Assembly: GCA_963668715.1 (NCBI GenBank)
Contig: OY764960.1
Coordinates: forward strand, 2,681,078 to 2,745,077
Reading direction: 5' to 3'
DNA from: Bacteroidales bacterium
Lineage (GTDB): Bacteria; Bacteroidota; Bacteroidia; Bacteroidales; VadinHA17
DNA: 64,000 nucleotides
The translations under genes and the position numbers were made by a program. The notes under the pieces are model-generated. The model was not told the origin of the DNA. It searched no databases and saw nothing but the letters and a program-made list of their open reading frames with translations. Positions within the stretch are counted from its first letter, which is position 1. Every line of letters begins with the position of its first letter. This document shows positions 21,586-35,715 of this stretch, piece by piece.

Positions 21586-22320
21586 TTAATCATTTTTATA
21601 TTTCTCTCTTAACGAGTCTCCATCGAGCTCTATTCTATGAGAACTATGCACTAATCTATCAAGGATCGCGTCAGCGATCGTAGGTTCTCCAATAACATCA
21701 TACCAGCTTTTAACCGGAAGCTGTGATGTAATTATCGTTGACCTTTTACCATGCCGGTCTTCGAGTAACTCAAGCAAGAACAGCCTCTGGTTGTTATCTA
21801 ATGGTTTAAGCCCGAAGTCATCAAGGATCAACAGGTCCAGTTTCTCTATCCTGTTTATTTCGCTTATATAACTGCCATCTGCCTTAGCCATTTTTAGTTG
21901 ATCGAACAGTTTTGAGCAGTTACGGTAATATACTTTATATCCCTGCTGACAGGCCTGATGACCCAAAGCAGAAGCCAAAAAGCTTTTACCCAGTCCTGTG
22001 TATCCGGATATGATGATGCTTTGTTTTCTTTTGATCCATTCACAGGACGATAAACGCAGCATCTGTACTTTATCCAGTTTTCTTTTAGCGATGTAATCTA
22101 TTTGTTCCATGCTCGCCTGGTAGCGGAACCTGGCGTTTTTTATTAGTCGATCCAGTCGTCGATTATATCGATCATCCCATTCTGCCTGGACAAGATGAGC
22201 AATAACTTCATCTATGGTAAAATCTTTACTCATTCCTGATTCCTGCATTTTCCGATAGACTCTTGAGAACCCGCTCAGTCGCATCTCCTCAAGTTTCTGC
22301 ATTGTTGCTGTTTGATTCAT
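21586..22320 (-). CDS. istB: IS21 helper ATPase IstB
   Basis: GYTGLGKSFLA, LLILDDFGL, STIITSQLP, ADAILDRL. Confidence 0.95.
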   Translation of the reverse strand: MNQTATMQKLEEMRLSGFSRVYRKMQESGMSKDFTIDEVIAHLVQAEWDDRYNRRLDRLIKNARFRYQASMEQIDYIAKRKLDKVQMLRLSSCEWIKRKQSIIISGYTGLGKSFLASALGHQACQQGYKVYYRNCSKLFDQLKMAKADGSYISEINRIEKLDLLILDDFGLKPLDNNQRLFLLELLEDRHGKRSTIITSQLPVKSWYDVIGEPTIADAILDRLVHSSHRIELDGDSLREKYKND

Positions 22321-22341
22321 AATTTTCTGCTATTAAATTTA

Positions 22342-23889
22342 TTATTTGTAATTCTCTTTTCCTCGTATGTTATGATGAAAAGGAAGTTTTATTTCTATTT
22401 GGTTTTCCTGTTCTGTTTTGTGAGTGTTATTTTTCAGGCAGTTCTTGATAAACTTGAATGAGATACAGTTGTACTCAACAGCCCTGCTGCATACTATTTC
22501 CAGATCTTCCGGTTTATACCCTTTACTTAGGTTCAATACTCCCATGCAAGATTTAAATGCTTGCTGAGGATGTTCTTTGCTGTCCAACAGGAGTCCTATA
22601 AAAATCTCTACGGAACCGCCCATCTTTTTGGCCCATTTTACAAAACGATCTGTATTCCAACCATCAACAAACTGATGTTCTGCAGGCATATGACCTTTCT
22701 CTGTTGTATAACCATAAGGCCTGCGGTCTCTTTTATGAAGCGCGATACGAACACTATCCTTGTATATCTCAACATTCCTGTTCGTGTAAATGGTTTTGAC
22801 CTTCTGTCCGGTATATTGATAGGGCACGCTGTAATAATGCTTGTCCTCTCTTAGGTAAACATGGTGGTGAAATTCAACTTTAGACACCTGGTAACGACGG
22901 ATCTCATATCGCTCTTTGGGTAGTGGTCGCAATTCATTCTTTTCTATTTCATTAAATAACTCTCTTCGACTAATATCCCGGCGCTGGAACGGAGCGTTAT
23001 TTATCTCTTCAAGCTCTTCCCGGATAGCTTCATTTAACTCTCCCAGGGAAAAGAACGTCTGGTTTCTTAGCTTAGCAAAAATGCGTTGATAGACAATGCG
23101 TACCGCATTTTCAACCAAAGATTTATCCTTTGGTTTTAAAGGACGGGTAGGAAGAACAACTGTACCATAATGCCGGGCAAGATCATCATAAGTCTCATTT
23201 AATAAGGGTTCATAATTACATGCCTTGTGAACAGCTGACTTCAAATTATCCGGGCATATCCCCCGGGTGACACCTCCATAATAACGCCAGGCATTCTCAT
23301 TGGCCCAGATCCAGTCTTCAAGCTTCTGACTTTTTACTCCTTCCACATAAATCAACTGACTGGCACCAAGTATCGTAATAAATATTTCTGCCGGTTTGAC
23401 CTCTCCTGTATCCGGATCAACATAATGCATCTTTTTGCCTGTAAAATCTGCATATGTCAGATCTCCGGCTTTGTGCTCTATATGCATTCCCGCTTTCAGC
23501 TTGCTCTCCCACATGCGATAATGATGACAGAACCTGGAGTAACTAAACCCTTCAGGGTTACCTTCCTTGTATTCCTCCCAAAGCAAATAGAGCGTTACGC
23601 CAACCCGGGCAAGCTCTTTTTCATAATAAGGGAATTCATTGGATAATTCTTCATAAAGCGGATTGACTATCTTATTTCGCTTTTCAAAGACTTCTGTAAG
23701 TTCTATGTCGTTCATTTCCAAAACATCCTGGTAGGTTAACCCGGAACGCTTATATTCTGCCAGGTACTCCCCAACACTGGTTTTGCTGACCTGGGTGGCC
23801 TCTGCAATCTGCCGGATGCTAAATCGTAATTCCTGACTAAGTCGTAATATCTCTCTTATCTTTTCCACGTTGGTCCTTTTTCTTGGCAT
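22342..23889 (-). CDS. istA: IS21 DDE transposase IstA
   Basis: N-terminal HTH, HKAGDLTYADFTG, CPDNLKSAV, PKDKSLVENAV, YYSVPY. Start placed at ATG 23889. Confidence 0.93.
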   Translation of the reverse strand: MPRKRTNVEKIREILRLSQELRFSIRQIAEATQVSKTSVGEYLAEYKRSGLTYQDVLEMNDIELTEVFEKRNKIVNPLYEELSNEFPYYEKELARVGVTLYLLWEEYKEGNPEGFSYSRFCHHYRMWESKLKAGMHIEHKAGDLTYADFTGKKMHYVDPDTGEVKPAEIFITILGASQLIYVEGVKSQKLEDWIWANENAWRYYGGVTRGICPDNLKSAVHKACNYEPLLNETYDDLARHYGTVVLPTRPLKPKDKSLVENAVRIVYQRIFAKLRNQTFFSLGELNEAIREELEEINNAPFQRRDISRRELFNEIEKNELRPLPKERYEIRRYQVSKVEFHHHVYLREDKHYYSVPYQYTGQKVKTIYTNRNVEIYKDSVRIALHKRDRRPYGYTTEKGHMPAEHQFVDGWNTDRFVKWAKKMGGSVEIFIGLLLDSKEHPQQAFKSCMGVLNLSKGYKPEDLEIVCSRAVEYNCISFKFIKNCLKNNTHKTEQENQIEIKLPFHHNIRGKENYK

Positions 23890-24345
23890 CTGTATTCTCT
23901 TGTTGGTTAATAAAGCCAACAGAGATACCGATATCCCGTGGAAAATGAATGATGTGTATGAAAGTGTCCGTTTTCAGCAAGAATCACCGTCCGCTTTCAA
24001 AAGGGGCGGCTGTCCGCTTTCCGCAGGAATCCGTGTCCGTTTTCAACAAGAATTGCTGTCCGCTTTCCGCAGGAATCCGTGTCCGCTTTCCGCAAGAATG
24101 AGTGTCCGTTTTGCGCGAGAATATGCATAAATTTGGTATTTATATTTGTAAAGTTTTATGCTTATAATAATAGTTAGTTATAGTAGTCTTTGAAATGCAA
24201 ATTACCGCCTTGCTTTAAAGTTATAATATTCATCTTCAATGAGTTTTTATTAATTAAATCCAACTAACACAGAGGAAATTATCAATTAAGTTCATTTTGT
24301 ACTGAACTTATCATACCTTTGTGCAAAGGTAAAATTTTCCAGATT

Positions 24346-24807
24346 ATGATGAATGAATATATTGAAACTGTAGGATTGTTTTATGAACGTTTCGGATTAT
24401 CAAGAATGTCAGGACGGATTCTTGGCTATCTTATGTCATCTCCCGAAGAATCAGTAAGCTTTGAGGATATAAGGGCACGGTTGCATGCAAGTAAAGGTTC
24501 TATTAGCGGCAATATTAACTTTCTTCTTGCCCAGAAAATTATAAATCGTACGATGAAACCAGGAGACCGTAAAACGTATTATTGCTTTTCTGCCAAATCG
24601 GTTTACCATGTGTTTGACCAAAAAGTACAATCAATAACTGAAATGAAAAAACTGCTGATACGTGCGAACGAAATTAACAATAACCCTTTACTTGATAAAC
24701 ATAAACAGATTTGTGAGACTATTGACTTTTATAATTTCCTGGAAAGTGAACTTCCAAAGCTAAAAGAAAAGTGGGAACATCAAAAAAAACACGAAAATGA
24801 AAAATAA
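24346..24807 (+). CDS. GbsR/MarR family transcriptional regulator
   Basis: GLSRMSGRILGYL, ASKGSISG, PGDRKTYY. Confidence 0.85.
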   Translation: MMNEYIETVGLFYERFGLSRMSGRILGYLMSSPEESVSFEDIRARLHASKGSISGNINFLLAQKIINRTMKPGDRKTYYCFSAKSVYHVFDQKVQSITEMKKLLIRANEINNNPLLDKHKQICETIDFYNFLESELPKLKEKWEHQKKHENEK

Positions 24808-25762
24808 ACTAAAAGTTGCTGCAATACAGGTAAATCAAAATATTGCCAATCGGGATAATTTGTTCTTACATACCGAAAACTTGATAAAAGAGGCAGTTGG
24901 TAAAAGTGTTGAATTGATTGTACTTCCTGAACTATTTTCAACCGGTTATATTCCAAATTATGATTTATGGGAGAAAATGCTGACAGAAGGTAAAAGTAGC
25001 TTGAAATGGATTGAAGGCATATCAAAAAAGTATGGAATATATATTGGTATGGGGCACGTGGAAATAATCGACGGGGAGGTTCTTAATACGTATGTTTTAT
25101 CAAATCCTCAAGGTGAAATAGAAGGACGTGGTATCAAAGAAAATAGTGAAGCTTATATTTTCAAAAGAGGAAATGGGAATCATTTGATTCATTCCGGTTT
25201 GGGTTTGATCAGTGTAGGTATTTGTGCCGATAATCATTTCTGTAACATCATAATTCAAATTCGGGATGAAAAACCTGTTTTACACCTGATGCCTCATGCA
25301 TGGTCAACACCTATGGAGACAAATAAAACGAAAAAAAATTCTGACTTTAAAAAAATAAAAAAAGATATTAATGAGTTTCCTGTTACCATTACAAAAGCCA
25401 TGGGAGTACCAGCTGTCTTTGTTAATCAACTGGGCGAGATGTCTCAAATGAAAGGGATACTTGGCAGACTAATGTCGCCAAAAAAATTCAAACTTCAAGG
25501 GCATTCTAAAATCATTGACAGTAATGGCAATATTCTTGCATCTATTAATGATGAAGAGGGATACATTATCGCTGAAGTGGAGTTAAAAACGGCTACACAA
25601 AAAAACGAAATCCCAAACTACAATGGTTGGACGCATGATGGTTCTAAACTACTTCGTAAAATCATTATTCCATTGGATTTATATTTTGGTAAAAGAAAAT
25701 ATGAAAGAAAAATGAGAATATTGAGAAAAGATATAAATGAACAATCTGTTAAACAAATATAA
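24797..25762 (+). CDS. Carbon-nitrogen hydrolase (nitrilase superfamily)
   Basis: LIVLPELFSTGY, K(E), GICAD: Glu-Lys-Cys triad. Confidence 0.85.
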   Translation: MKNKLKVAAIQVNQNIANRDNLFLHTENLIKEAVGKSVELIVLPELFSTGYIPNYDLWEKMLTEGKSSLKWIEGISKKYGIYIGMGHVEIIDGEVLNTYVLSNPQGEIEGRGIKENSEAYIFKRGNGNHLIHSGLGLISVGICADNHFCNIIIQIRDEKPVLHLMPHAWSTPMETNKTKKNSDFKKIKKDINEFPVTITKAMGVPAVFVNQLGEMSQMKGILGRLMSPKKFKLQGHSKIIDSNGNILASINDEEGYIIAEVELKTATQKNEIPNYNGWTHDGSKLLRKIIIPLDLYFGKRKYERKMRILRKDINEQSVKQI

Positions 25763-26202
25763 GATCACTGTAACAAACTAAATTAGAATGAACTTTTTGC
25801 CTCTGAGCAATGCAGTTATCCTGTTTCCAGTAGTGCTTTGAGTTCTGATAATCCTTCTAATCTTCCTTAAGTCGAGCTCTCTGTCCTTACTAAATTCTTT
25901 TTCTAAATCAAGGGTGTCTTTATGAAGACTTCTGATCGAATCACTCAATGCAATTAATGCAAGTAAAATTGCTAAACTTGAGCCTATCAAGAATTCTTCC
26001 ATCCTAGATTGAAAATTGTTTGTAAGCTTTGACCATCATATAGATTCGATTGACTTAATCAAATTTAAACAAATAATTTATTATAAGTCAAATATTTTTT
26101 TCTGCACTGTATGTGATTTACATACTGGTATTTACATTTATCACAATCAATTTATCCATAAACTTGTATTTCATATTCCTTCAATATTCTTAAAGAGTTC
26201 TA

Positions 26203-27398
26203 GTGTCATGTCAATGATTAAAAGTCGGATAAAGACGCTTAAGCTTTATCCTGGCATCGCCTGAATCAAATCTCCAGTTGATTGTAGCATTCATATTGTT
26301 GCGGGCTTCTTGCCAGGCACTTGCTTGTTCTGCAACCTCAGCAATAGTTGCAATTCTTCTATCCAGGCATTGCCCCATTAGGACATTTAATTCAATTTCA
26401 GCCATATTCAACCAACTTCCATGTTTAGGAGTATAAACAAACTCAAACCTGTCCCATAACTTTTTAGCCTCATTTGGCTCGAAAGTTTCGTATAACGAAC
26501 CAGGTTTATGTGTGCCAAGATTATCCATTACCAAGGTGATTTTTTCGGCATTTTCATAGAGTTGTGCAATTTCAGATAAATATTTAGCCCAATCCTTTTT
26601 TGTTTTTGTCTCTGTAATCTTAACATAGCGACAGCCTCTAAGTGGCTCATTGGCCATGAAGATATTGCATACGCCATTCCTGCAATATTCGTAATCGTAT
26701 TTTTTTTCATATCCTGGCTTCATATTTATTGGCTGTTTTATTTCCCCAATAAGTTGCTTCGGTGATTCGTCCATGCAAACAACTGGGAACTTTGGGTCAT
26801 ATGGCCTTTTGTACACCTCAAGTACCTTTTCCATATTTGCCACAAAATCACCATTTTGCAGGGGAGGAATTACCCACCCCTTTTTCTTCCACGGCTTTAA
26901 CTCGTTTTTTTAAAACTCTTCGCACTGTTTCATGTGATATTTTACTTATGTATTCAAGCTCAACAACTTTATCTGCCAACATCCTTAATGACCAACGGGC
27001 AAACCCTTTGGGTGGTTCACTGCAACTCAGGGCAATTAAATGAGCTTCCAACTCGCCGTCTACTTTTTTATTATATACCCTTTCTCCTTTATGACCTTCC
27101 AAGGCAATTTCCAATCCTTCTTCCACAAAACGCTTTTTGACCCTATCTATTTTTTTCATGCTTGTTTTAAGAACTCCGCATATGGCCTCGTTTGTAGATT
27201 TCCCGGATTGGTGCCTTCCCTCATCACAGTTTAATAATATTAATGCATTCAGCACCTTTTGTGATTTGTGTGAGCCTTTTGAGGCTATGCCTGATAGTGT
27301 CTCTCGTTCTTCTTTTGTTAAGGTTACTATATACTTTTTCATAGCAATTTTTTGCTAAGTTACAAAATATATACGACATTATAAAGTTGACATGACAC
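26203..27398 (-). mobile_element. Complete IS630-family element
   Basis: Perfect 12-bp inverted repeats GTGTCATGTCAA/TTGACATGACAC, TA duplication within a CTAG target. Confidence 0.92.
26211..27342 (-). CDS. IS630 transposase in two frames joined by a probable -1 programmed frameshift
   Basis: ORF A is an HTH (RWSLRMLA); slippery A7C at 26904-26911 leads into NELKPW...; ORF B has VCMDE, LVMDNL, TPKHGSWLNMAE. Confidence 0.88.
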
Positions 27399-27576
27399 TA
27401 GTTGCATTTTGATTATGCAATGAATTGGGTTCTCTGGTTTCATGAAACTTCATAAGTTTGTATGAGTTTTCAACGTCAACAAAGCTTAGAAGATAATAAC
27501 TTGTGGGGAATATGTGGGGAAAAATTGACAATAAAAAAAGCCAATCAATTGATTATTAACTGACTGGCTCTCAGAC

Positions 27577-27654
27577 TGGTCGGGGTAGTAGGATTCGAAC
27601 CTACGACCCCCTGCTCCCAAAGCAGGTGCGCTAACCGGACTGCGCTATACCCCG
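27577..27654 (-). tRNA. tRNA-Pro(TGG) with encoded CCA
   Basis: CGGGGTA acceptor stem, anticodon arm CCTGC-TT-TGG-GA-GCAGG, T-arm GTTCGAATC, ACCA end. Confidence 0.97.
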
Positions 27655-27903
27655 AAAATTATTCTCCTGTGCAAATCTAATAACTCTTTCCCTATTTTTT
27701 AACTTCTTTAAAAGTTGCTCAGTTTTAAAAGCTTCCCCTCTTGTCTCATAAGCCTTCCAGTATTTCAAAGTCCATGGTCTCCATGATCTGGTGGAAGTTA
27801 CTCTCCCTGCATTATGTCTTTTTACCCTGTTCTCCAGATCGCTGGTCTGGCCTATATAGTGCCTGTTATCTTTATCTGATTCAAGTATATATACGTAAAA
27901 CAT
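27631..27903 (-). CDS. GIY-YIG nuclease (UPF0213/YhbQ-like), copy 1; 3' end overlaps tRNA-Pro
   Basis: YVYIL...YIGQTSDLENRVKRHN...A..E..LK; last codons RGIAQSG* are tRNA nt 1-24. Confidence 0.88.
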   Translation of the reverse strand: MFYVYILESDKDNRHYIGQTSDLENRVKRHNAGRVTSTRSWRPWTLKYWKAYETRGEAFKTEQLLKKLKNRERVIRFAQENNFRGIAQSG

Positions 27904-27921
27904 ATTCTTAAACCTGGTGCG

Positions 27922-28287
27922 CTAATCCCGAAAAACACATTCCGCCGTAAGGCGGATTGATGTTTTTCGAGGATCCTCGAAAATCAGATTTCGCTTTGCG
28001 AAAGCTGATTTATCGGGACCGGACTGCGCTATACCCCGAAAATTATTCTCCTGTGCAAATCTAATAACTCTTTCCCTATTTTTAAACTTCTTTAAAAGTT
28101 GCTCAGTTTTAAAAGCTTCCCCTCTTGTCTCATAAGCCTTCCAGTATTTCAAAGTCCATGGTCTCCATGATCTGGTGGAAGTTACTCTCCCTGCATTATG
28201 TTTTTTTACCCTGTTCTCCAGATCGCTGGTCTGGCCTATATAGTGCCTGTTATCTTTATCTGATTCAAGTATATATACGTAAAACAT
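27922..28287 (-). CDS. GIY-YIG nuclease copy 2, C-terminally extended through the palindrome
   Basis: Two amino-acid differences from copy 1; the stop is displaced by the 93-bp insertion. Confidence 0.82.
   Translation of the reverse strand: MFYVYILESDKDNRHYIGQTSDLENRVKKHNAGRVTSTRSWRPWTLKYWKAYETRGEAFKTEQLLKKFKNRERVIRFAQENNFRGIAQSGPDKSAFAKRNLIFEDPRKTSIRLTAECVFRD
27926..28018. repeat. 93-bp multi-hairpin palindromic element, copy 1
   Basis: TCCCGA...TCGAGGATCCTCGA...TCGGGA; removing it restores tRNA nt 1-30. Confidence 0.9.
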
Positions 28288-28309
28288 ATTCTTAAACCTG
28301 GTACGCTAA

Positions 28310-28402
28310 TCCCGAAAAACACATTCCGCCGTAAGGCGGATTGATGTTTTTCGAGGATCCTCGAAAATCAGATTTCGCTTTGCGAAAGCTGATTTATCGG
28401 GA
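28310..28402. repeat. 93-bp multi-hairpin palindromic element, copy 2
   Basis: Identical to 27926-28018. Confidence 0.9.
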
Positions 28403-28426
28403 CCGGACTGCGCTATACCCCGCTCT

Positions 28427-28454
28427 GCCCACCGTAGCTTTAGCGAAGGTGGGC
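28427..28454. repeat. REP-like hairpin GCCCACC-GTAGCTTTAGCGAA-GGTGGGC
   Basis: 7-bp GC stem lying 4 nt upstream of the first tRNA fragment. Confidence 0.65.
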
Positions 28455-28519
28455 TCTCTCCAGCAACTTTCTGTATGGACAAACCATTAATCAGCTTCTG
28501 TTAGAGCCTTTAGACGCTG

Positions 28520-28549
28520 CAAAAATATAAAACCATTTTGGTTTTGCAA
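28520..28549 (-). promoter_or_regulatory. Bacteroidota sigma-70-type promoter of the tRNA-Pro locus
   Basis: Minus strand TTG-N19-TATTTTTG matches -33 (T)TTG / -7 TAnnTTTG. Confidence 0.65.
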
Positions 28550-28905
28550 TGTGTAACCAATAATAATGCAAAACAGCAGTGTAATCTGATGACAGGATAA
28601 CCCGGCTAAACAGACCCGGCAGACTTGCAGAATATTATTTACGGAAGTATAATGCCTGTAATATATTTTTCTGATCTTATTATGCTGGTATAAATACTTA
28701 TTTCTTGAATATCTTGAGATTCCGTAATGATTTTATTTTGAATATAATATAGCATTTAGTATAAGTGTTATATAACATATTTTATTTTCTGAAATTCGTC
28801 TCGGTTTTTCTTAAATTGTAATAAGAATCCAATTTTGTTTGAGAGGTTAATCTATTGTTAGACAAATGATTTTCGTCAAAGTTACTTGCCTGAAGCCTTA
28901 AGAAA

Positions 28906-30975
28906 ATGAAGTCAAAAAAGCTTACATGCATGAGCCCGGTAATTCTCTTATTTATATTCTTTTTACCGGAGTCCTATGCCCAGGACTATGATATGAAATT
29001 CGGGCAGATACCTATGGAAGAACTGGCAATGTTAACATATGAAAGAGACACCAGCGCCAGCGCCGTTATATTGGGTGAATTTGGGGATATCACATTCAGA
29101 TATGATGAGAGTGACAACATGTTTAAAATTAATTTTGAACGACATACCCGAATAAAGATACTTAAGGTAGGCGGGTATGACTGGGCCGATCATGAAATAA
29201 GGCTTTATCATTCTCTTAATCTGAAAGAGACAGTTGGCAGGATAAGGGCTGCTACATATAACCTTGAAGGAGAAAAGATTGTTAAATCCAAATTAAATAA
29301 AAATGCTGTTTTCGTGGATCAGGTAAGTGACAACTGGCGATATGTTAAGTTTACCATGCCTGATGTAAAGGTAGGTTCTGTAATAGAATATACTTATATA
29401 GTCGAATCCGAATATTTAGTAAATTTTCCTGAGTGGAGATTTCAGTATAGTATTCCTGTTGCCTGGAGTGAGCTCAATGTGAAAATTCCTGAATATTTTG
29501 ATTATAAACAGATCATGTCGGATTATGAGTCTGTTTACATTAGCAATCATGAGACGGGCCATGACAGAATTTCTGTATCCAGTAAAAGCAAATCTTCCGG
29601 GGTCCGGAATATGGAACCTACTTCATTTACTACCCAGAATATCGATTTTTCTGTTAATAAATATCGTCATGTTGCCAGGAATATACCTGCATTTTCTAAT
29701 GAGCCAATGATTACAACTGCAGATAATTACATCTCAAAGATACGTTTTGAACTTCAGTCTGTGCAATTCCCTCGTCAGAAAATAGAGTATTTTACTACTA
29801 CCTGGGATGCTATTGCTAATAAGCTTATCGATCATGAGGATTTCGGACATGAGCTTATTAAAGAAGCATTTTATATGAATGACTTTATTAAAGAACTGGA
29901 TAGTAGCGTTGCCGATCCAATGGAAAGGATTGAAAAGATATATGATCATATAAAAAATTATATGAAATGGAATGGTAAATATTCAATATTCGTGACAAGT
30001 GAACTAAGAAAAGCTTATAATGATCAGTCAGGAAGTATCGGGGATATTAACCTTCTGTTGACCCTGTTACTGAAAAAAGCAGGGTTCAAAGCTTATCCTG
30101 TTGTGCTAAGCACAAGGAGTAACGGGATAATAAATACACACTTTCCTCAACTGACACAATTCAACTATGTTATTTGTATGGTAGTAGAGGATAATAACAG
30201 ATACCTGCTCGATGCGTCTGATAAGTTTTGTACTTTTAATCTGCTTCCTCAAAAATGTCTTAATGGCATGGGCCTTTATATCAGTGAAGAATCAACCGGC
30301 TGGGTAGAACTTAATCCTACAAGTATTTATGATTATGAGACAAACCTGACACTTGATATGACATCTGATGCAGGTTTTAGCGGGAAACTGCAAAATACAC
30401 GAAAAGATTATGCTGCATATTATCTGAGGAGAGCAATAGATGAGGAAAATGACAGTGATGAATTTGTAAAAAAAATACAGGACAGTAACCCCGGGCTCGA
30501 AATTGTTGAATACAATTATTCTAATCTGAGTGATGTGGATTTACCTGTGAATGAGGATTATACTATAAATATTGAGGATTTCGCTATTGTTGCCGGTGAT
30601 ATGATATATTTCAATCCAATGTTTTTTGAGCATATGCAATCCAATCCTTTCAAGCTGGAAGACAGGAAGTATCCGATTGATTATTCCTATCCGAGATGTG
30701 AAAAGTATACATTGTCCCTAAAAATACCTGAAGACTATGATATAGTTGAAATGCCGGCAAAAGAGACTCTCTCAATGAGAGACGGATCTGCAACATACCT
30801 GTATGATATACAGTTTAATGAAGGCAGTCTGACGCTTGAGTCAGAGTTAAAGATAAATAAAAGCATATTTGTCTTTAACGAATATGCTGAATTGAAACAA
30901 TTTTATACAGATATTGTCAAAGCGCAATCACAACAAGTAGTATTAGAGAAATCCGTTTCACTTCCTGAGTTATGA
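28906..30975 (+). CDS. DUF3857 + transglutaminase-like exported protein (no catalytic Cys)
   Basis: FTMPDVKVGSVIEY, W.FQ..IP, GSIGDINLLL, FNYVI, LLDAS. Confidence 0.85.
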   Translation: MKSKKLTCMSPVILLFIFFLPESYAQDYDMKFGQIPMEELAMLTYERDTSASAVILGEFGDITFRYDESDNMFKINFERHTRIKILKVGGYDWADHEIRLYHSLNLKETVGRIRAATYNLEGEKIVKSKLNKNAVFVDQVSDNWRYVKFTMPDVKVGSVIEYTYIVESEYLVNFPEWRFQYSIPVAWSELNVKIPEYFDYKQIMSDYESVYISNHETGHDRISVSSKSKSSGVRNMEPTSFTTQNIDFSVNKYRHVARNIPAFSNEPMITTADNYISKIRFELQSVQFPRQKIEYFTTTWDAIANKLIDHEDFGHELIKEAFYMNDFIKELDSSVADPMERIEKIYDHIKNYMKWNGKYSIFVTSELRKAYNDQSGSIGDINLLLTLLLKKAGFKAYPVVLSTRSNGIINTHFPQLTQFNYVICMVVEDNNRYLLDASDKFCTFNLLPQKCLNGMGLYISEESTGWVELNPTSIYDYETNLTLDMTSDAGFSGKLQNTRKDYAAYYLRRAIDEENDSDEFVKKIQDSNPGLEIVEYNYSNLSDVDLPVNEDYTINIEDFAIVAGDMIYFNPMFFEHMQSNPFKLEDRKYPIDYSYPRCEKYTLSLKIPEDYDIVEMPAKETLSMRDGSATYLYDIQFNEGSLTLESELKINKSIFVFNEYAELKQFYTDIVKAQSQQVVLEKSVSLPEL

Positions 30976-32882
30976 AAATAAAGATTACTTTATGTGTGCT
31001 TCTGGTTTTACTTACTGCATTTGGCGGTGTAAGCAATAATGAATACACGGTAGCCGAAATTCCGGAGGAACTGTTGGAAGGTGCGCTGGCAATAGTCAGA
31101 TATTCGAAAAGAACTTTCAGGGTAAATTCAGAATCTTCTGCAAGCTTATCAGTGAAGAAGGCAATTACAATTTTAAGTGATAAAGCAGATGAATATGCTA
31201 TTGTTAACCTTGTATATGATAAGTTTAACGTAATAGGTAATCTAAGTGTCAGACTTTATGATAAAGACGGCAAACTGATAAGAAAGGTCAGAAACCAGGA
31301 AATTGAGGATTACAGCTCGTTCGACGGGTATTCTGTTTTTGCTGATAACAGACAGAAATATTATAAGCCGAATGTTGCATCCTACCCTTATACTATTGAA
31401 TATGAGTATGATTACATATATAAAGGCTTGTTGCAGTACCCTGCATGGCAACCTGTTAACAGATACGATCTTGCAGTTCAGAAATCTGAGTACGAAATAA
31501 TCACGCCTTCTGATTTTAAGATCAGATTATTTGAATCTAATCTATACGATGAAGGAATAAGGTATACGAAGGATGAGTTAAATTATTATTGCTGGCAGGT
31601 ATCAGATATCAGAGCAATTGAAGATGAGGCTTTCAATCCCTATCTGTTTGAATTTACTCCGGTGGTATATGCAGCCCCGAATGTTTTCGAGATAAGCGGT
31701 TACAAAGGAAATATGGAAACATGGAGCGGATTCGGGAGCTGGATTTTCAAATTGATGGAGGACAGGGATAATTTATCATCTGAAACCTTGGAGATACTTA
31801 AAAAGCTTGAAGCTGAATCAGTGGATCAGACGGATCTGATCAGAAAGGTGTATGAGTTTGTTCAGAAAAATACAAGATACGTGAGCATCCAGCTTGGTAT
31901 AGGTAGCTGGCAACCAATGTCGGCGACTGAGGTGGAAAATACCGGCTATGGCGATTGTAAGGCTCTTACAAATTACACATATGCGCTGCTGAAAGCTTTG
32001 GGCATTAAATCATATTATTCTATTGTCAGGGCCGGAGAGTCAGTTCCTGATATAAATAAAGACTTCGTCAGTAACCAGTCGAATCATGTTATATTATGTG
32101 TGCCGCAAATGAACGATACCATCTGGCTTGAATGTACAAGCCAGACATCACCTTTTGGATATATTGGCAGTTTTACGTCCGATCGTTATGCTTTATTAGT
32201 AAAAGATGACGGAGGCATACTTGTGAGGACCAGAAAATATAAGCAATCTGAGAACCTTCAGGTCATTAATGCTATCGTTGATATTAAGTCAGGAGAAGAA
32301 AGCTATGCCGATATCGAGATTGTCTGTTCCGGGCTGCAATATGAAACCTTTTCTCATCTTTTACATAAATCGCCGGATGATATCGCAAAATGGATATATA
32401 ACAATACAGAAATAAATAATATTGATCTGAACAGTTATGATATTGCACAGAAGGGATCAGTAGATCCTGAAATAAGATTGAAGGAGGAATTGCGGATTCA
32501 ACATTATACCGCGGAAACAGGCGAAAGATTGTTCCTCCCAATGAACCTGCTTAACAGGATTGATTATGTGCCACCTCGTATTAAGGATAGAAAGACCAGT
32601 GTCGTTAGAAGATATCCTTATATTGATTTCGATACGATAAAATATATTATTCCTGATGATTATATGATCGAGGCATTACCGAAAGACTTAAAATATGAAA
32701 CGGTCTTTGGTGATTATATAGCAACATTTAATGTTGATGATGATACAATAATATATACCAGAAAAGTTGTAATGAATGAAGGGATCTTTGAACCTTCAGA
32801 ATATGATGTCTTACGTAATTTTTGCAGGGATATTTCAAAGGCAGATAATGCAAAAGCTGTACTGGTGAGAACGGATGATTAA
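30972..32882 (+). CDS. DUF3857 + transglutaminase-like exported protein
   Basis: RYVSIQLGIG, YGDCKALTNY (Cys), NHVIL, WLECT. Confidence 0.87.
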   Translation: MKIKITLCVLLVLLTAFGGVSNNEYTVAEIPEELLEGALAIVRYSKRTFRVNSESSASLSVKKAITILSDKADEYAIVNLVYDKFNVIGNLSVRLYDKDGKLIRKVRNQEIEDYSSFDGYSVFADNRQKYYKPNVASYPYTIEYEYDYIYKGLLQYPAWQPVNRYDLAVQKSEYEIITPSDFKIRLFESNLYDEGIRYTKDELNYYCWQVSDIRAIEDEAFNPYLFEFTPVVYAAPNVFEISGYKGNMETWSGFGSWIFKLMEDRDNLSSETLEILKKLEAESVDQTDLIRKVYEFVQKNTRYVSIQLGIGSWQPMSATEVENTGYGDCKALTNYTYALLKALGIKSYYSIVRAGESVPDINKDFVSNQSNHVILCVPQMNDTIWLECTSQTSPFGYIGSFTSDRYALLVKDDGGILVRTRKYKQSENLQVINAIVDIKSGEESYADIEIVCSGLQYETFSHLLHKSPDDIAKWIYNNTEINNIDLNSYDIAQKGSVDPEIRLKEELRIQHYTAETGERLFLPMNLLNRIDYVPPRIKDRKTSVVRRYPYIDFDTIKYIIPDDYMIEALPKDLKYETVFGDYIATFNVDDDTIIYTRKVVMNEGIFEPSEYDVLRNFCRDISKADNAKAVLVRTDD

Positions 32883-33020
32883 TGGAGTTGATCCTTCTTA
32901 AGCCTGTCATACACCTCCGTTTCTAATTTACTTGTAATTAATTATTCCGGATTTTTTATGTTTGTTGCGTATTTGTATTGATTAAATATAAATATGCTTA
33001 ATAATTGTTATATTTGCATC

Positions 33021-33173
33021 GTGGAAATTTTAAAATATATATTAAAAGATCATAATAACAGGAAATATTCTATTTCTGTCCTGCGTGATTGGTTTTCCAC
33101 TTCCACTTCTTCAGTTATTATGGCAGTAACCTCTGGTTCTGCATCCACGACCTCTACCGGGACTCCCTTTTAG
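33021..33173 (+). CDS. Putative Thr/Ser-rich leader peptide of thrA (50 aa)
   Basis: GTG start 4 nt after TATATTTG (33009-33016); ends ...STSTSSVIMAVTSGSASTTSTGTPF*; the stop lies inside hairpin ACTCCC-TTTTA-GGGAGT. Confidence 0.6.
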   Translation: MEILKYILKDHNNRKYSISVLRDWFSTSTSSVIMAVTSGSASTTSTGTPF

Positions 33174-33264
33174 GGAGTAATTTAATCATATCGCCATAAG
33201 TGGATTATCATCCAAAACTGTAAAGCAGTCAGCTAACTGATGTCAAATCTTTAATTAATTATAA

Positions 33265-35715
33265 ATGAAAGTTATGAAGTTCGGGGGTACATCCCTCGCA
33301 GGACCAGATCCGGTTAAACAGGTTTTTAATATAATAAACAAACAATTATCTGAAAATAAAATACTTGTCGTAGTATCAGCTATGGCCGGCGTGACAGATG
33401 GTCTTCTGCTATCGGCAGAATCGGCAAGAGACGGGAACAAGGATTATGAAACAATTATTGAGGAAATAAAGAACAGGCATATTGAGACTGCCAACTCATT
33501 GCTTAATGATATAGTATTGACAGACACTATTACTGCGATCAATGACAGATTCAGCATGGTCCTTGAGAACCTTCATGGCATATATCTTCTCAGAGAACTG
33601 TCCCCCGGGTCAAAAGATAAAATACTTGGTGCCGGTGAATATCTGTCTGCACATATACTGAAGTTTTTTTTTCAGGTAAGGGGAGTGAAGGCAGATCTTA
33701 TTGATTCCGCAGATTTCATTACCGGTGAAAACAGAAACGGGTCAGTCAAAATAGATTATGATAAAACATATGCGCGTATTGCATCGCTGAAACTTCATAA
33801 TTTAATTATTGCTCCCGGTTTTGTAGCTTCGGGTTCCGACGGGAAGTGTATTACCCTGGGCAGAGGAGGCTCGGACTATTCCGCGGCATTATTTGCGGCC
33901 GGATTAGATACGGAAAGTCTTGAAATATGGACAGATGTGGATGGCATCTTTACTGCAGACCCCGGAATGGTGCCTTCTTCATACCTGATTAGTCGCCTGT
34001 CTTACCAGGAAGCTCTTGAATTATCTCATTTCGGGGCTAAAATAATTTATCCCTTAACCATACACCCTGTATTTTCAAAAAAAATACCTGTTAATATCAG
34101 AAATACATTCAACCCCGAAGGAGAAGGAACAATAATATCATCAAGGGTACAAAGAGATGAGAGTATTATCAAAGGCCTTTCTTCTGTTTCTGATATATCT
34201 CTGATATTAGTCTCCGGTAGCGGAATGGTGGGAGTGTCGGGAATATCATCCAGGTTGTTTTCTTCCCTGGCAAAAAAGTATCTTAATGTAATCCTTATTA
34301 CTCAGGCTTCTTCGGAGCATTCTATCTGTATCGCGGTAAATACTGAAGTCGCATCACAGGCAGTTAAAGCTATAAAAGAGGAGTTCAGTTATGAGCTGTC
34401 TGTAAATAAAATAAACAGGATCGACAGGGAAGATGGGTTCTCAATAGTATCGATTGTTGGCGAAAAAATGATAAAAACGGTCGGTATCAGCGGTAAAGCC
34501 CTGGGCGCTTTAGGCAAAAACGGTATTAATATCCATGCTATTTCTCAGGGATCATCTGAGCTTAATATATCCCTGGTAATAAAAAAGGAACTTACCCGCA
34601 AATCACTGAATATTCTTCATGAAGAGTTTTTTCTGTCATCATACAAAACAGTCAACCTTTACATTGCAGGCACCGGGAATGTAGGCAGTAAACTGCTGCA
34701 GATGATAGAAAAGCAGGAGGAGTACCTGAAAAAAAAGAAAGGGGTCAGACTGGTTGTCAAGGGTATAACCAACAGCAGGAAAATGATTTTTAATGATGAG
34801 GGGATCTCATTACATGACTGGAAAGACCATATGGAGTCAGGCGAAAAAGCTGACATAAAAAGGTTTGCGGAAAAGATAATAACCAATAATTTCAGGAACA
34901 GTATTTTTATAGATAATACGGCAAATGATCAGGTAAGCGGAACTTACGGTACACTTATTTCATCATCTGTCAGCATCGTTACATGCAACAAGATAGCCGC
35001 TTCTTCGGAATATTCCTGTTATTCGAAACTAAAAGAGTCGGCACGAAAAAAGAATATACAGTTTTTATTCGAGAGCAATGTCGGGGCCGGATTGCCTGTG
35101 ATCAATACCATCAATAACCTAAAAAATTCAGGTGACGATATTCTGAAAATAGAGGGAGTCCTTTCGGGAAGCGTGAATTTTATTCTCAACCGTTTTTTGG
35201 ACGGGAGAAGCATAAGGGAATCTGTTGAAGAGGCTATGCAAAAAGGGTTTACCGAGCCTGATCCCAGGATAGATCTGTCAGGCACCGATATCGGAAGAAA
35301 AATCCTGATCCTGGCGAGGGAAGCCGGATATAATCTTGAACCCGGGGATGTTTCTGTAAAAAGGTTTTTACCTGAATCTTGTTTCAATACACCTGGTATT
35401 CCTGAATTCATTGCTGAACTTGATCAGGCTGAAAAGGACCTTACAGAACTAAGGCAAAAGGCAAACGAAGGAAATAAAAAGCTGAGGTTTATTGCAAGAT
35501 TCAGTGACCCTCTTGCTGTTGTTAACCTTGAAGAGGTTGATTCAAAAAACCCTTTTTATAATGTTGAGGACACTGACAATATGATTGTCCTTTATACCAG
35601 GTGGTATAACAGCCAGCCCCTGGTTATCAAAGGGGCAGGAGCAGGCGCAGAGCTTACCTCTTCAGGAATAATGTCCGATATTATGCAGATCACGGGAAAC
35701 GGATTCACAAACTGA
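33265..35715 (+). CDS. thrA: Bifunctional aspartokinase/homoserine dehydrogenase
   Basis: MKVMKFGGTS, LGRGGSDYSA, WTDVDG, two ACT domains, GTGNVG, NVGAGLP, GFTEPDPRIDLSG. Confidence 0.92.
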   Translation: MKVMKFGGTSLAGPDPVKQVFNIINKQLSENKILVVVSAMAGVTDGLLLSAESARDGNKDYETIIEEIKNRHIETANSLLNDIVLTDTITAINDRFSMVLENLHGIYLLRELSPGSKDKILGAGEYLSAHILKFFFQVRGVKADLIDSADFITGENRNGSVKIDYDKTYARIASLKLHNLIIAPGFVASGSDGKCITLGRGGSDYSAALFAAGLDTESLEIWTDVDGIFTADPGMVPSSYLISRLSYQEALELSHFGAKIIYPLTIHPVFSKKIPVNIRNTFNPEGEGTIISSRVQRDESIIKGLSSVSDISLILVSGSGMVGVSGISSRLFSSLAKKYLNVILITQASSEHSICIAVNTEVASQAVKAIKEEFSYELSVNKINRIDREDGFSIVSIVGEKMIKTVGISGKALGALGKNGINIHAISQGSSELNISLVIKKELTRKSLNILHEEFFLSSYKTVNLYIAGTGNVGSKLLQMIEKQEEYLKKKKGVRLVVKGITNSRKMIFNDEGISLHDWKDHMESGEKADIKRFAEKIITNNFRNSIFIDNTANDQVSGTYGTLISSSVSIVTCNKIAASSEYSCYSKLKESARKKNIQFLFESNVGAGLPVINTINNLKNSGDDILKIEGVLSGSVNFILNRFLDGRSIRESVEEAMQKGFTEPDPRIDLSGTDIGRKILILAREAGYNLEPGDVSVKRFLPESCFNTPGIPEFIAELDQAEKDLTELRQKANEGNKKLRFIARFSDPLAVVNLEEVDSKNPFYNVEDTDNMIVLYTRWYNSQPLVIKGAGAGAELTSSGIMSDIMQITGNGFTN

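What the first reader, a model, noticed from the sequence alone, without database searches (positions are those of the whole stretch)
27577..28549. Minimal GIY-YIG cassette tandemly amplified at the 5' half of tRNA-Pro
Seen (minus strand): promoter > hairpin > [tRNA nt 1-30, 12 nt, GIY-YIG ORF] x2 > intact tRNA-Pro. The unit is exactly 384 bp and the copies differ at three positions, which argues against an assembly artefact. Each nuclease ORF is bracketed by direct repeats of the tRNA 5' portion, as expected if a unit of about 290 bp inserted and regenerated the tRNA. There is no integrase, transposase or intron core. Established: UPF0213/YhbQ-type GIY-YIG proteins are small nucleases of mostly unknown role, and most tRNA-targeting elements use a recombinase. 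Inference: this may be a nuclease-only selfish element that targets tRNA 5' halves and expands by cut-and-recombine or unequal crossover.
Basis: partly seen in the sequence, partly recalled or inferred. Interest (0 to 1): 0.88.

Follow-up and report, generated by a model that had tools for sequence, protein, structure and literature searches.

The report
Tiny nuclease cassettes embedded at tRNA genes
Two tandem copies of a 384-bp cassette (a broken, hairpin-stuffed copy of the start of tRNA-Pro plus a tiny GIY-YIG nuclease gene) sit in front of the intact tRNA-Pro gene, and the same design recurs at many tRNA genes across many bacterial phyla, which suggests a widespread nuclease-only selfish element that I could not find described.

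Summary
The tandem repeat is real: 2.1 copies of 384 bp with 3 differences, ending in the intact, single-copy tRNA-Pro(UGG) gene.

The same genome has a second such array (2 x 325 bp) at its only tRNA-Asp gene.

The design is general. Of 80 homologous loci from many phyla, 61 lie within 400 bp of a tRNA gene (about 1% expected), and 49 of 61 carry a partial copy of that tRNA on the other side of the ORF. Those partial copies are interrupted by GC-rich hairpins in the D-loop, anticodon arm or T-loop; 31 of 33 fold strongly and 17 of 33 have TCCCGA...TCGGGA ends. In 201 genomes of the phylum, 137 carry the family, with tandem arrays of up to 14 copies.

Within the genus, orthologous tRNA loci are occupied, empty, or hold ORF-deleted remnants and a deletion footprint. 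Carriers are not a clade on an rpoB tree.

The protein is an 82-aa UPF0213/Slx1-like catalytic domain under purifying selection.

Best reading (0.6): a homing-endonuclease-like, nuclease-only selfish cassette that regenerates its tRNA target and amplifies by repeat recombination. Cleavage and homing are inferred. Seven literature searches found no description.

The parts
28515..28551 (-). Promoter-like region of the tRNA-Pro operon, with an upstream (A)TTG box and a TAnnTTTG-type box. It now drives the whole array.
   Evidence: The same motif block is conserved upstream of tRNA-Pro in 12 genus loci with or without the cassette. The consensus used (TTTG / TAnnTTTG for Bacteroidota) is recalled, not tested.
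28428..28453 (-). Leader hairpin that is native to the tRNA-Pro leader.
   Evidence: Read directly from the sequence. Homologous hairpins lie just upstream of tRNA-Pro in the cassette-free congeners G011, G015, G005 and G006.
28402..28422 (-). Unit 1: exact copy of tRNA-Pro nt 1-21 (direct repeat).
28309..28401 (-). Unit 1: 92-93-nt insert in the D-loop position, made of two adjacent hairpins. Each is closed by a TCCCGA/TCGGGA-type stem.
   Evidence: Fold energy is -59.4 kcal/mol with z = -7.9. The consensus structure across 8 loci has 15 pairs, 7 of them with compensatory changes.
28300..28308 (-). Unit 1: copy of tRNA-Pro nt 22-30 with one mismatch, followed by a 12-nt spacer (28288-28299).
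27922..28287 (-). GIY-YIG ORF copy 1 (121 aa). The nuclease domain is residues 1-82; the tail is read from the next tRNA fragment and insert.
28018..28038 (-). Unit 2: exact copy of tRNA-Pro nt 1-21.
27925..28017 (-). Unit 2: the double-hairpin insert, identical to that of unit 1.
27916..27924 (-). Unit 2: exact copy of tRNA-Pro nt 22-30, followed by a 12-nt spacer (27904-27915).
27631..27903 (-). GIY-YIG ORF copy 2 (90 aa). Its stop codon is a TAG inside the D-loop of the intact tRNA.
   Evidence: The AlphaFold2 model has pLDDT 93. Best structural matches are UPF0213 and Slx1.
27577..27654 (-). Intact tRNA-Pro(UGG), the only gene for this anticodon in the genome.
   Evidence: (71.3 bits). It is identical over nt 1-76 to the tRNA of the cassette-free congeners G013 and G014.
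27533..27570 (-). Terminator-like hairpin with a T-run downstream of the tRNA.
   Evidence: Read directly from the sequence; not tested further.

Best explanation
The locus holds two tandem copies of a tRNA-gene-resident, nuclease-only selfish cassette.

Anatomy. One cassette consists of:
- a disabled partial copy of the target tRNA, broken by one or more GC-rich hairpins that often have TCCCGA...TCGGGA ends;
- an 82-aa catalytic-domain-only GIY-YIG nuclease gene of the UPF0213/Slx1 type;
- a copy of the tRNA part that restores an intact tRNA at the junction.

The cassette sits between the native promoter and leader and the single-copy tRNA, on the same strand. It is therefore probably co-transcribed with an essential gene.

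Proposed cycle (inferred):
1. The structure-selective nuclease breaks tRNA-gene DNA at loop-coding positions.
2. The break is repaired from an occupied allele. The tRNA sequence itself supplies homology on both sides (disabled copy on one side, intact copy on the other), so the cassette is copied in and the tRNA is kept.
3. The hairpins in the disabled copy break up the homology and possibly the cleavage site, which stabilises the insertion.
4. Recombination between the tRNA-derived direct repeats, possibly stimulated by further breaks, gives tandem arrays or loss.

Shown: the anatomy, its generality, allele polymorphism with remnants and a footprint, arrays, conserved catalytic residues and purifying selection.

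Inferred: nuclease activity, its substrate, homing, the role of the hairpins, and break-stimulated amplification.
For: Anatomy of the window locus.

Second array in the same genome: 2.1 x 325 bp at 99% identity at the only tRNA-Asp(GUC) gene. Its ORF is only 43% identical to the tRNA-Pro one, but the layout is the same: tRNA nt 1-39, a TCCCGA hairpin, the ORF, then the intact tRNA.

Generality:
- 26 of 41 relatives carry homologues, and 19 of 30 distinct loci there hold a tRNA.
- 61 of 80 loci from Bacteroidota, Ignavibacteriota, Patescibacteria, Chloroflexota, Planctomycetota, Verrucomicrobiota, Nitrospirota and others lie within 400 bp of a tRNA, 59 of them on the same strand. My arithmetic from 45 tRNAs in 4.27 Mb gives about 0.9% by chance.
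- 49 of 61 carry at least 10 nt of exact partial copy of that tRNA on the far side of the ORF.
- In an evenly drawn phylum sample, 20 of 29 loci are tRNA-adjacent and 16 have partial copies.

Hairpins:
- 31 of 33 inserted segments fold better than 95 of 100 shuffles, and 17 of 33 have TCCCGA...TCGGGA-like ends.
- Junctions cluster in the D-loop, the anticodon arm and the T-loop.
- The tRNA-Pro insert shows covariation.

Prevalence and arrays:
- 137 of 201 genomes at least 90% complete carry the family, with 698 matches in total.
- Arrays of 14.1, 5.5, 3.1, 2.9 and 2.1-2.2 copies were found. Eight of the nine arrays detected overlap a tRNA end; the 14-copy one runs off its contig, so its tRNA is not seen.

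Alleles in the genus:
- tRNA-Pro: G000 (2 units), G004 and G007 are occupied. Nine loci in eight genomes carry no cassette; the G013 leader holds a 10-nt match to the ORF 3' end, so it may be a second footprint. G007 shares its flanks with the empty alleles. G001 keeps only the ORF 3' end as a footprint.
- tRNA-Asp: full, truncated and empty alleles all occur.
- Carriers are not a clade on the rpoB tree; starred branches force at least 3 changes.

Protein:
- Y5, Y16, G18, R26, H30 and E62 are invariant.
- PDB sequence matches are UPF0213 1ZG2 (5e-18) and 1YWL (3e-16), then SLX1. The fold is confirmed.
- dN/dS is 0.09-0.23.

Target tracking: tRNA isotype is clustered on the protein tree (43 changes against 64.6 in shuffles, 0 of 200 as low). 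There are also starred sister pairs at different tRNAs.

Precedent: phage T6 SegB, a GIY-YIG homing endonuclease in a tRNA cluster, cuts inside tRNA genes and drives recombination-dependent tandem amplification (PMC13096335, sections 9 and 10 read).
Against: - No cleavage, homing or circle has been shown.
- The intact tRNA next to the cassette is identical to that of the cassette-free congeners G013 and G014. The presumed target is therefore not destroyed by insertion, unlike in classical homing.
- An 82-aa catalytic domain has no DNA-binding domain to read a long site.
- The cassettes look old. Cassette dS (1.0-1.6) is of the same order as rpoB dS (0.9-1.9), and the protein is under purifying selection. 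This also fits vertical descent with repeated loss, or a host-useful gene.
- The apparent cross-taxon pairs at the same tRNA turned out to be syntenic in their flanks, so they are not evidence of transfer.
- No close paralogues sit at different tRNAs within genome G175.
- There were no hits in 50,697 phage records and only one in 72,556 plasmids, so no vector is seen.
- 19 of 80 loci show no tRNA within 400 bp.
Confidence: 0.6

Rival explanations
1. Host-useful, vertically inherited tRNA-linked nuclease. On this reading the small GIY-YIG gene is a long-standing passenger of tRNA operons with a cellular role, for example processing branched or R-loop DNA at highly transcribed tRNA genes, acting on tRNA transcripts, or guarding tRNA genes against integrating elements. 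The partial tRNA copies and arrays are by-products of local duplication and unequal crossover.
For: - Purifying selection, with dN/dS 0.09-0.23.
- Cassette dS is of the same order as rpoB dS.
- The ORF is on the same strand as the tRNA and immediately adjacent to it, which implies co-transcription.
- The family is present in 137 of 201 genomes of the phylum.
Against: - A housekeeping role does not explain several divergent paralogues per genome, each at a different tRNA.
- It does not explain frequent absence in close relatives, ORF-deleted remnants and in-frame stops.
- It does not explain the disabled, hairpin-substituted tRNA copy that accompanies the ORF in 49 of 61 loci.
- It does not explain arrays of identical copies up to 14 long.
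- 64 of 201 genomes at least 90% complete show no member.
Confidence: 0.2
2. RNA-protein module of the toxin-antitoxin or regulatory kind. The structured pseudo-tRNA and hairpin RNA would control or neutralise the nuclease, as the repeat RNA does in type III toxin-antitoxin systems. The tRNA neighbourhood would only provide transcription.
For: - A conserved structured element always accompanies the ORF.
- The TCCCGA...TCGGGA hairpin is conserved across divergent protein clades.
- In many downstream-type loci a terminator-like hairpin lies between the tRNA and the ORF.
Against: - The structured part lies upstream of the ORF in about half of the loci and downstream in the other half.
- It is made of exact blocks of the neighbouring tRNA, which a free-standing antitoxin would not need.
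- PADLOC gives only weak motif-level matches, with best E 4e-4.
- The comparison with type III systems is recalled, not tested.
Confidence: 0.05
3. Remnant of a recombinase-driven integrative element, or a passive segmental duplication without its own biology. The tRNA fragments would be old att-type duplications.
For: - tRNA genes are classical integration sites (established knowledge).
- The genome also has ORF-less 3' fragment repeats downstream of tRNA-Val(GAC) and tRNA-Ser(CGA).
Against: - No integrase lies within about 6 kb.
- The duplicated part here is the 5' end.
- The unit is only 384 bp.
- The same ORF-plus-fragment design recurs at 49 of 61 independent loci.
Confidence: 0.03
4. Assembly artefact: a single unit was wrongly duplicated.
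For: Only contig-level public runs were available, and no read spans the array.
Against: - The copies differ at three positions.
- A second array exists at another locus in the same one-contig genome.
- Arrays occur in many unrelated assemblies.
- The collapsed 414-letter contig has 1.7-3.5 times the depth of the flank contig.
Confidence: 0.01

Closest known systems
SegB of phages T4/T6 (free-standing GIY-YIG homing endonuclease in the phage tRNA gene cluster)
   Same: It has a GIY-YIG catalytic domain and lies among tRNA genes. It cuts inside tRNA genes and drives recombination-dependent tandem amplification of a segment holding its own gene and a tRNA. Its homologues are enriched near tRNAs of many isotypes (PMC13096335, sections 9 and 10 read; PMC2330249, search listing only).
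   Different: SegB is phage-borne and, as I recall, more than 200 aa long with a DNA-binding part. Here the protein is an 82-aa catalytic domain on bacterial chromosomes, with no phage hit at E <= 1e-6. The cassette carries a disabled, hairpin-substituted copy of the tRNA and regenerates the tRNA. Sequence similarity to phage homing endonucleases is limited to the N-terminal motif (PHROGs E 3e-5).
UPF0213 proteins (BH0048, PDB 1ZG2; EF2693, PDB 1YWL; YhbQ/YazA) and the Slx1 nuclease domain
   Same: These are the best sequence and fold matches. They are stand-alone small GIY-YIG domains. Slx1 is a structure-selective nuclease for branched DNA (titles of 6SEI and 7CQ4; PMC7017083, passage).
   Different: None of the papers seen reports a link of these proteins to tRNA genes, partial tRNA copies, hairpin inserts or tandem arrays. 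Slx1 also has a zinc-finger domain and needs Slx4, and no partner is known here.
Integrase-driven genomic islands and prophages that insert into tRNA genes
   Same: The insertion is at a tRNA gene, and the element carries a copy of part of the tRNA so that an intact gene is restored and a partial copy is left as a direct repeat.
   Different: There is no integrase. The unit is 300-400 bp. The 5' part is duplicated as often as the 3' part. The leftover copy is systematically broken by hairpins. Tandem arrays are common.
Group I introns with homing endonucleases in bacterial tRNA genes
   Same: Both are selfish insertions within a tRNA gene that leave tRNA function intact, and both can encode GIY-YIG enzymes.
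   Different: Rfam finds no intron core or ribozyme. The tRNA is restored by duplication of DNA, not by splicing.
REP/RAYT and IS200/IS605-type systems (a small nuclease with hairpin repeats)
   Same: A small nuclease gene travels with conserved short hairpins. One genome (G147) even has at least 9 dispersed ~660-bp copies, bounded by inverted repeats, that encode only a related GIY-YIG ORF.
   Different: The enzyme class is different (GIY-YIG, not HUH). The hairpins here sit inside copies of a tRNA. The comparison is recalled, not tested.

Membership tests
GIY-YIG nuclease superfamily (PF01541) | GIY and YIG motifs with the conserved Arg, His and metal-binding Glu | tested here: met
   PF01541 E 7e-17 and 9e-16. 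Y5, Y16, G18, R26, H30 and E62 are invariant in 15 diverse members.
GIY-YIG nuclease superfamily (PF01541) | alpha/beta GIY-YIG fold | tested here: met
   The AlphaFold2 model has pLDDT 93 and pTM 0.82. Foldseek top hits are 1ZG2, Slx1 (6SEI, 7CQ3, 4XM5), the I-TevI catalytic domain and the UvrC N-terminal domain.
GIY-YIG nuclease superfamily (PF01541) | Nuclease activity | not testable with these tools
UPF0213 / Slx1-like clade | Closest relatives are UPF0213 and Slx1 rather than UvrC or intron endonucleases | tested here: met
   A profile of A2 against the PDB gives 1ZG2 5e-18, 1YWL 3e-16 and SLX1 7e-6 to 7e-5. The NCBIfam group I intron endonuclease model scores only 22 bits against a cut-off of 56.
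Homing endonuclease gene (functional class) | Presence/absence polymorphism at one homologous site | tested here: met
   At tRNA-Pro there are 3 occupied genomes, 1 footprint, and 9 cassette-free loci in 8 genomes. At tRNA-Asp there are full, truncated and empty alleles. Carriers are not a clade.
Homing endonuclease gene (functional class) | Site-specific cleavage of the empty allele and copying of the gene into it | not testable with these tools
   This needs biochemistry and a donor/recipient assay.
Homing endonuclease gene (functional class) | Insertion destroys the recognition site | tested here: inconclusive
   The disabled tRNA copy is broken by hairpins. However, an intact tRNA identical to that of the cassette-free congeners G013 and G014 is regenerated beside it.
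Homing endonuclease gene (functional class) | A DNA-binding domain that reads a long target | tested here: not met
   The ORF is 82 aa of catalytic domain only.
Homing endonuclease gene (functional class) | Degeneration and loss cycle | tested here: met
   ORF-deleted remnants are found in G007 and G001 and a footprint in G001. In-frame stops and truncated copies also occur.
Integrase-type tRNA-inserting island | Tyrosine or serine recombinase in the element | tested here: not met
   Pfam scans of the ORFs of at least 120 aa from 21586 to 35715 show only IS630, IS21, MarR, CN hydrolase, DUF3857 and ThrA.
Group I/II intron or self-cleaving ribozyme | Match to an Rfam intron or ribozyme model | tested here: not met
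   cmscan of 26500-29500 at E <= 1 finds only the tRNA and a chance mir-2 hit.
Known anti-phage defence systems (PADLOC) | Match to a system component model | tested here: not met
   Only motif-level matches were found, with best E 4e-4 at 17.5 bits.

The most novel reading that the evidence does not exclude
The cassette could be a protein-minimal, nucleic-acid-directed homing system. The co-transcribed pseudo-tRNA carries 21-39 nt of exact identity to the target gene and is joined to conserved TCCCGA/TCGGGA hairpins. It would pair with the cognate tRNA gene, or fold into a branched structure there. This would create the junction that an 82-aa Slx1-like structure-selective nuclease cuts.

Target choice would then be supplied by the element's own tRNA-derived nucleic acid rather than by a DNA-binding domain. 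This would explain four things:
- how a bare catalytic domain finds tRNA genes;
- why identity blocks end exactly at hairpins;
- why the same hairpin accompanies divergent nucleases;
- how targets switch between tRNAs.
Probability: 0.08. Interest if true: 0.95.

Novelty: new variant of a known kind. Interest (0 to 1): 0.8.

Why it matters
If the reading holds, about two thirds of the sampled genomes of a major bacterial phylum, and members of many other phyla, carry a class of mobile element I could not find described.

- It needs only an 82-aa nuclease.
- It lives inside the transcription units of essential tRNA genes.
- It restores its target by carrying a replacement piece.
- It repeatedly builds tandem arrays.

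This would extend homing-endonuclease biology from phages, introns and organelles to bacterial chromosomes. It would explain many 'GIY-YIG family protein' genes, odd pseudo-tRNAs and assembly breaks next to tRNA genes. It would also give UPF0213/Slx1-like proteins, whose role in bacteria I did not find established, a testable function. The conserved hairpin and the bare catalytic domain pose a clear question about how the target is chosen.

Tried and rejected
- Known RNA families: Rfam at E <= 1 over 26500-29500 found no ribozyme, intron or other family in the insert.
- Internal promoter idea: a TAnnTTTG box in the ORF 3' end upstream of the intact tRNA is seen in the tRNA-Pro(UGG) clade only. 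It occurs in 2 of 27 upstream-type loci, against 3% of random 60-nt windows, so it is not general.
- Cross-phylum transfer: near-identical or sister cassettes at the same tRNA under different taxon labels (L048 against the Flavobacterium loci; L088 against L093) proved syntenic over their flanks. They are vertical relatives or mislabelled bins, not evidence of transfer.
- Vectors: there were no phage hits and one plasmid hit.
- Defence systems: PADLOC and PHROGs gave only weak matches.
- Synteny anchors: the neighbouring DUF3857 protein and ThrA were poor anchors in this deeply diverged genus, matching 3 of 16 and 1 of 16 genomes. I used the tRNA itself and rpoB instead.
- Recent jumps between tRNAs within one genome: none were seen in G175. 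G147 instead showed a dispersed family without tRNAs.
- Comparing array units at a fixed period failed for arrays with indels. Only the G080 result (5 identical units) is used.
- Reads: only contigs were served. No RNA run held more than 5% of the sampled words. Expression, processing, circles and copy-number heterogeneity therefore could not be examined, and the absence of cover in run X23 says nothing.
- Literature: seven full-text searches found no paper on small GIY-YIG genes flanked by partial tRNA copies. The library lacks most subscription journals, and supplements were closed and not asked for. Supplementary data of PMC13096335 on SegB neighbourhoods might bear on phage relatives.
Full report
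**1. What is in the window**

On the minus strand, Tandem Repeats Finder reports 2.1 copies of a 384-bp unit at 27634-28422, with 99% matches and no indels. The two units differ at three positions. The array ends in an intact tRNA-Pro(UGG) at 27577-27654. This is the only gene for that anticodon among the genome's 45 tRNA genes.

Read 5' to 3' (coordinates), the locus consists of:
- a promoter-like block (28515-28551);
- a leader hairpin (28428-28453);
- two units, each made of tRNA nt 1-21, a 92-93-nt insert, tRNA nt 22-30, a 12-nt spacer and an ORF;
- the intact tRNA;
- a terminator-like hairpin (27533-27570).

It folds very strongly: the 130-nt 5' part of the unit has -59.4 kcal/mol and z = -7.9, and none of 200 shuffles folds as well.

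The ORFs match PF01541 (E 7e-17 and 9e-16). They have no stop codon of their own. Copy 2 ends at a TAG in the D-loop of the intact tRNA. Copy 1 reads on into the next unit.

An IS630-like transposase lies just downstream (26211-27342). It has 4 near-identical copies in the genome, and I treat it as unrelated. No integrase lies within about 6 kb. Rfam finds no intron or ribozyme.

**2. A second array in the same genome**

A search of the whole one-contig genome found a second pair of tandem GIY-YIG ORFs, 43% identical to the first pair. They form 2.1 copies of a 325-bp unit (99% identity) that ends in the only tRNA-Asp(GUC) gene.

The unit has the same plan as the tRNA-Pro unit:
- tRNA-Asp nt 1-39;
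- a perfect TCCCGA-N4-TCGGGA hairpin;
- a T-arm-like remnant;
- the ORF, whose stop codon again lies in the next tRNA copy.

**3. The design is general**

- In 41 related genomes, 26 have homologues. Of 30 distinct loci fetched, 19 hold a tRNA gene. Nearly all of those have partial copies of the same tRNA on the other side of the ORF (sequences read).
- A scan of one genome per species gave 80 loci from Bacteroidota, Ignavibacteriota, Patescibacteria, Chloroflexota, Planctomycetota, Verrucomicrobiota, Nitrospirota, Pseudomonadota and others. Of these, 61 lie within 400 bp of a tRNA gene and 59 are on the same strand. A random point in the window's genome would do so about 0.9% of the time (my arithmetic).
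- Two mirror arrangements exist (61 loci examined). In 27 loci the ORF is upstream of the intact tRNA, and 25 of these have a partial 5' copy further upstream. In 34 loci the ORF is downstream of the intact tRNA, and 24 of these have a partial or whole disabled copy further downstream.
- In an evenly drawn sample of the phylum, 20 of 29 top loci are tRNA-adjacent and 16 have partial copies.

**4. The disabled tRNA copies**

The partial copies are collinear blocks of exact tRNA sequence separated by inserted or replacing segments. The junctions cluster in three places: the D-loop (10), replacement of the whole anticodon arm at positions 27|45 (6), and the T-loop region (about 15).

Of 33 such segments of at least 14 nt, 31 fold better than 95 of 100 shuffles. 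Seventeen have TCCCGA...TCGGGA-like ends, across different tRNAs, protein clades and phyla.

The 92-nt insert of the tRNA-Pro clade resolves into two adjacent hairpins. Each is closed by a stem of this type, and 7 of 15 pairs show compensatory changes among 8 loci.

**5. Prevalence and arrays**

Among 201 genomes of the phylum that are at least 90% complete, 137 have at least one member at E <= 1e-6. There are 698 matches in all and up to 22 per genome.

Tandem arrays are frequent:
- 14.1 x 299 bp in G112, running off the contig end, so no tRNA is seen there;
- 5.5 x 382 bp in G080, where five units are identical;
- 3.1 x 307 bp;
- 2.9 x 368 bp;
- five arrays of 2.1-2.2 copies.

All except the G112 array overlap the end of a tRNA gene. 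At least 13 of the 137 genomes show tandem pairs among the 150 listed matches, which is a lower bound.

The window's array length (2 x 384 + 21) and the tRNA-Asp array length (2 x 325 + 42) are what one unequal exchange between the flanking direct repeats would give.

**6. Alleles in the genus**

At tRNA-Pro(UGG), a full-length gene was found at 13 places in 12 of the 16 genus genomes searched, G000 included.
- G000 (2 units), G004 and G007 carry the cassette.
- G007 shares its upstream and downstream flanks with cassette-free alleles.
- Nine loci in eight genomes show only promoter, leader hairpin and tRNA. The G013 leader carries a 10-nt match to the ORF 3' end and may be a second footprint.
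- G001 keeps only the 3' end of the ORF and the element's hairpin directly in front of the intact tRNA. That is the product expected from recombination between the long direct repeats seen in G007.

At tRNA-Asp:
- four genomes are empty;
- G000 has two full units;
- G004 has one full and one ORF-truncated unit;
- G007 has one ORF-deleted remnant and G001 at least two;
- G009 has a fragment at a contig end.

On an rpoB DNA tree of 14 genus genomes, the three tRNA-Pro carriers are each sister to a non-carrier. Starred branches force at least three changes.

The intact tRNA is identical in G000 and in the cassette-free G013 and G014.

**7. The protein**

- The catalytic Tyr, Tyr/Gly, Arg, His and Glu are invariant in 15 diverse members.
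- The nearest solved relatives are the UPF0213 proteins 1ZG2 and 1YWL, followed by SLX1.
- A confident model (pLDDT 93) matches these and, more weakly, the I-TevI and UvrC catalytic domains.
- There is no further domain.
- Among tRNA-Pro orthologues, dN/dS is 0.09-0.23.
- Cassette dS (about 1.0-1.6) is of the same order as rpoB dS for the same genome pairs (0.9-1.9). The cassettes are therefore old residents, although 82 codons give noisy values.

**8. Phylogeny against tRNA type**

On a quick tree of 90 proteins (short alignment, many unresolved forks), the tRNA isotype is clustered. It needs 43 changes against 64.6 in shuffles, and 0 of 200 shuffles are as low.
- The tRNA-Pro(UGG) clade has support 99 and lies next to a tRNA-Pro(GGG) clade.
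- There are also well-supported sister pairs at different tRNAs: His/Gly, Ala/Lys and Gly/Arg.

Kinship alone produces clustering. The cross-taxon pairs that I checked were syntenic in their flanks. I therefore claim target fidelity with occasional switching, not demonstrated horizontal transfer.

**9. Interpretation**

The anatomy, the occupied/empty/remnant/footprint alleles, the several divergent copies per genome at different tRNAs, and the recurrent arrays fit a selfish, homing-endonuclease-like cassette best.

Its special features are:
- it carries a replacement part that regenerates the tRNA;
- it leaves a disabled, hairpin-broken copy;
- the tRNA itself can serve as the homology arm on both sides.

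The closest precedent is phage SegB. It cuts inside tRNA genes and drives recombination-dependent tandem amplification (PMC13096335, sections 9 and 10).

Three weak points remain: the target is not destroyed, there is no DNA-binding domain, and residence is long with purifying selection. They keep a host-useful role alive as a rival (0.2). They also motivate the bolder idea that the pseudo-tRNA/hairpin nucleic acid directs a structure-selective nuclease (0.08).

**10. Novelty**

Seven full-text searches found no description of tRNA-flanked small GIY-YIG cassettes. The 2006 superfamily survey mentions tRNA only in connection with a TrmH fusion. Subscription literature was not searchable.

I rate the finding a new variant of a known kind: free-standing homing-endonuclease-like elements.

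Noticed in passing
window 26211-27342 (minus strand): An IS630-like element with two ORFs (HTH_32/HTH_29 and DDE_3) lies directly downstream of tRNA-Pro. The genome holds 4 copies at 99.4-100% identity.
   Followed up: partly
window 21586-23919 (minus strand): An IS21-type pair is present: an IstB-like ATPase (E 3e-67) and a transposase with a Mu-transposase C-terminal domain.
   Followed up: no
G000:C1:1486988-1487221 and G000:C1:2973087-2973520: tRNA-Val(GAC) and tRNA-Ser(CGA) each have an exact 3' fragment (17 and 19 nt) repeated 150-320 bp downstream. The spacers are hairpin-rich, have no ORF and share an AAAGCTTGCTTT-type loop motif. They may be decayed cassettes or another small element.
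   Followed up: partly
G000 genome-wide (for example C1:909779, 1730103, 2399549, 2404753, 3082370, 3191298, 3570278): Perfect TCCCGA-N4-TCGGGA hairpins occur 12 times in the genome, against about 0.25 expected. Several lie inside two other dispersed repeat families and two lie in the rRNA operons.
   Followed up: partly
L212-L221 (G147:C1, for example 607100-608900): One genome of the phylum has at least 9 dispersed copies (74-99% identical) of a ~660-bp unit. The unit is bounded by ~18-bp inverted repeats and encodes only a related ~105-aa GIY-YIG ORF, with no tRNA nearby. It looks like a transposon-like, nuclease-only element.
   Followed up: partly
L189 (G001) versus L190 (G007), tRNA-Asp remnants: Otherwise near-identical hairpins differ by an inverted loop (GTCC versus GGAC). 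This is the kind of change expected from template switching or flip-flop at a DNA hairpin.
   Followed up: no
L009/L031 (G025:C3): An array of eight tRNA-Val-like genes, several with abnormal anticodon loops, is interspersed with two GIY-YIG ORFs.
   Followed up: no
L012 (G020:C59): The disabled tRNA-Ala copy carries a D-loop insert of the tRNA-Pro type, preceded by a TCCGGT motif that belongs to the tRNA-Pro D-loop and not to tRNA-Ala. This may be a trace of a switch of target tRNA.
   Followed up: no
L048 (record labelled Chitinophaga pinensis MAG): The 4-kb locus is collinear at 73-88% identity with Flavobacterium loci, so the bin's taxon label is doubtful.
   Followed up: partly
L177 (G112:C2:364955-369156): A 14-copy array of 299-bp units runs to the end of its contig. 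Many other homologues sit within a few hundred bases of contig ends. These cassettes probably break short-read assemblies and are under-counted.
   Followed up: no
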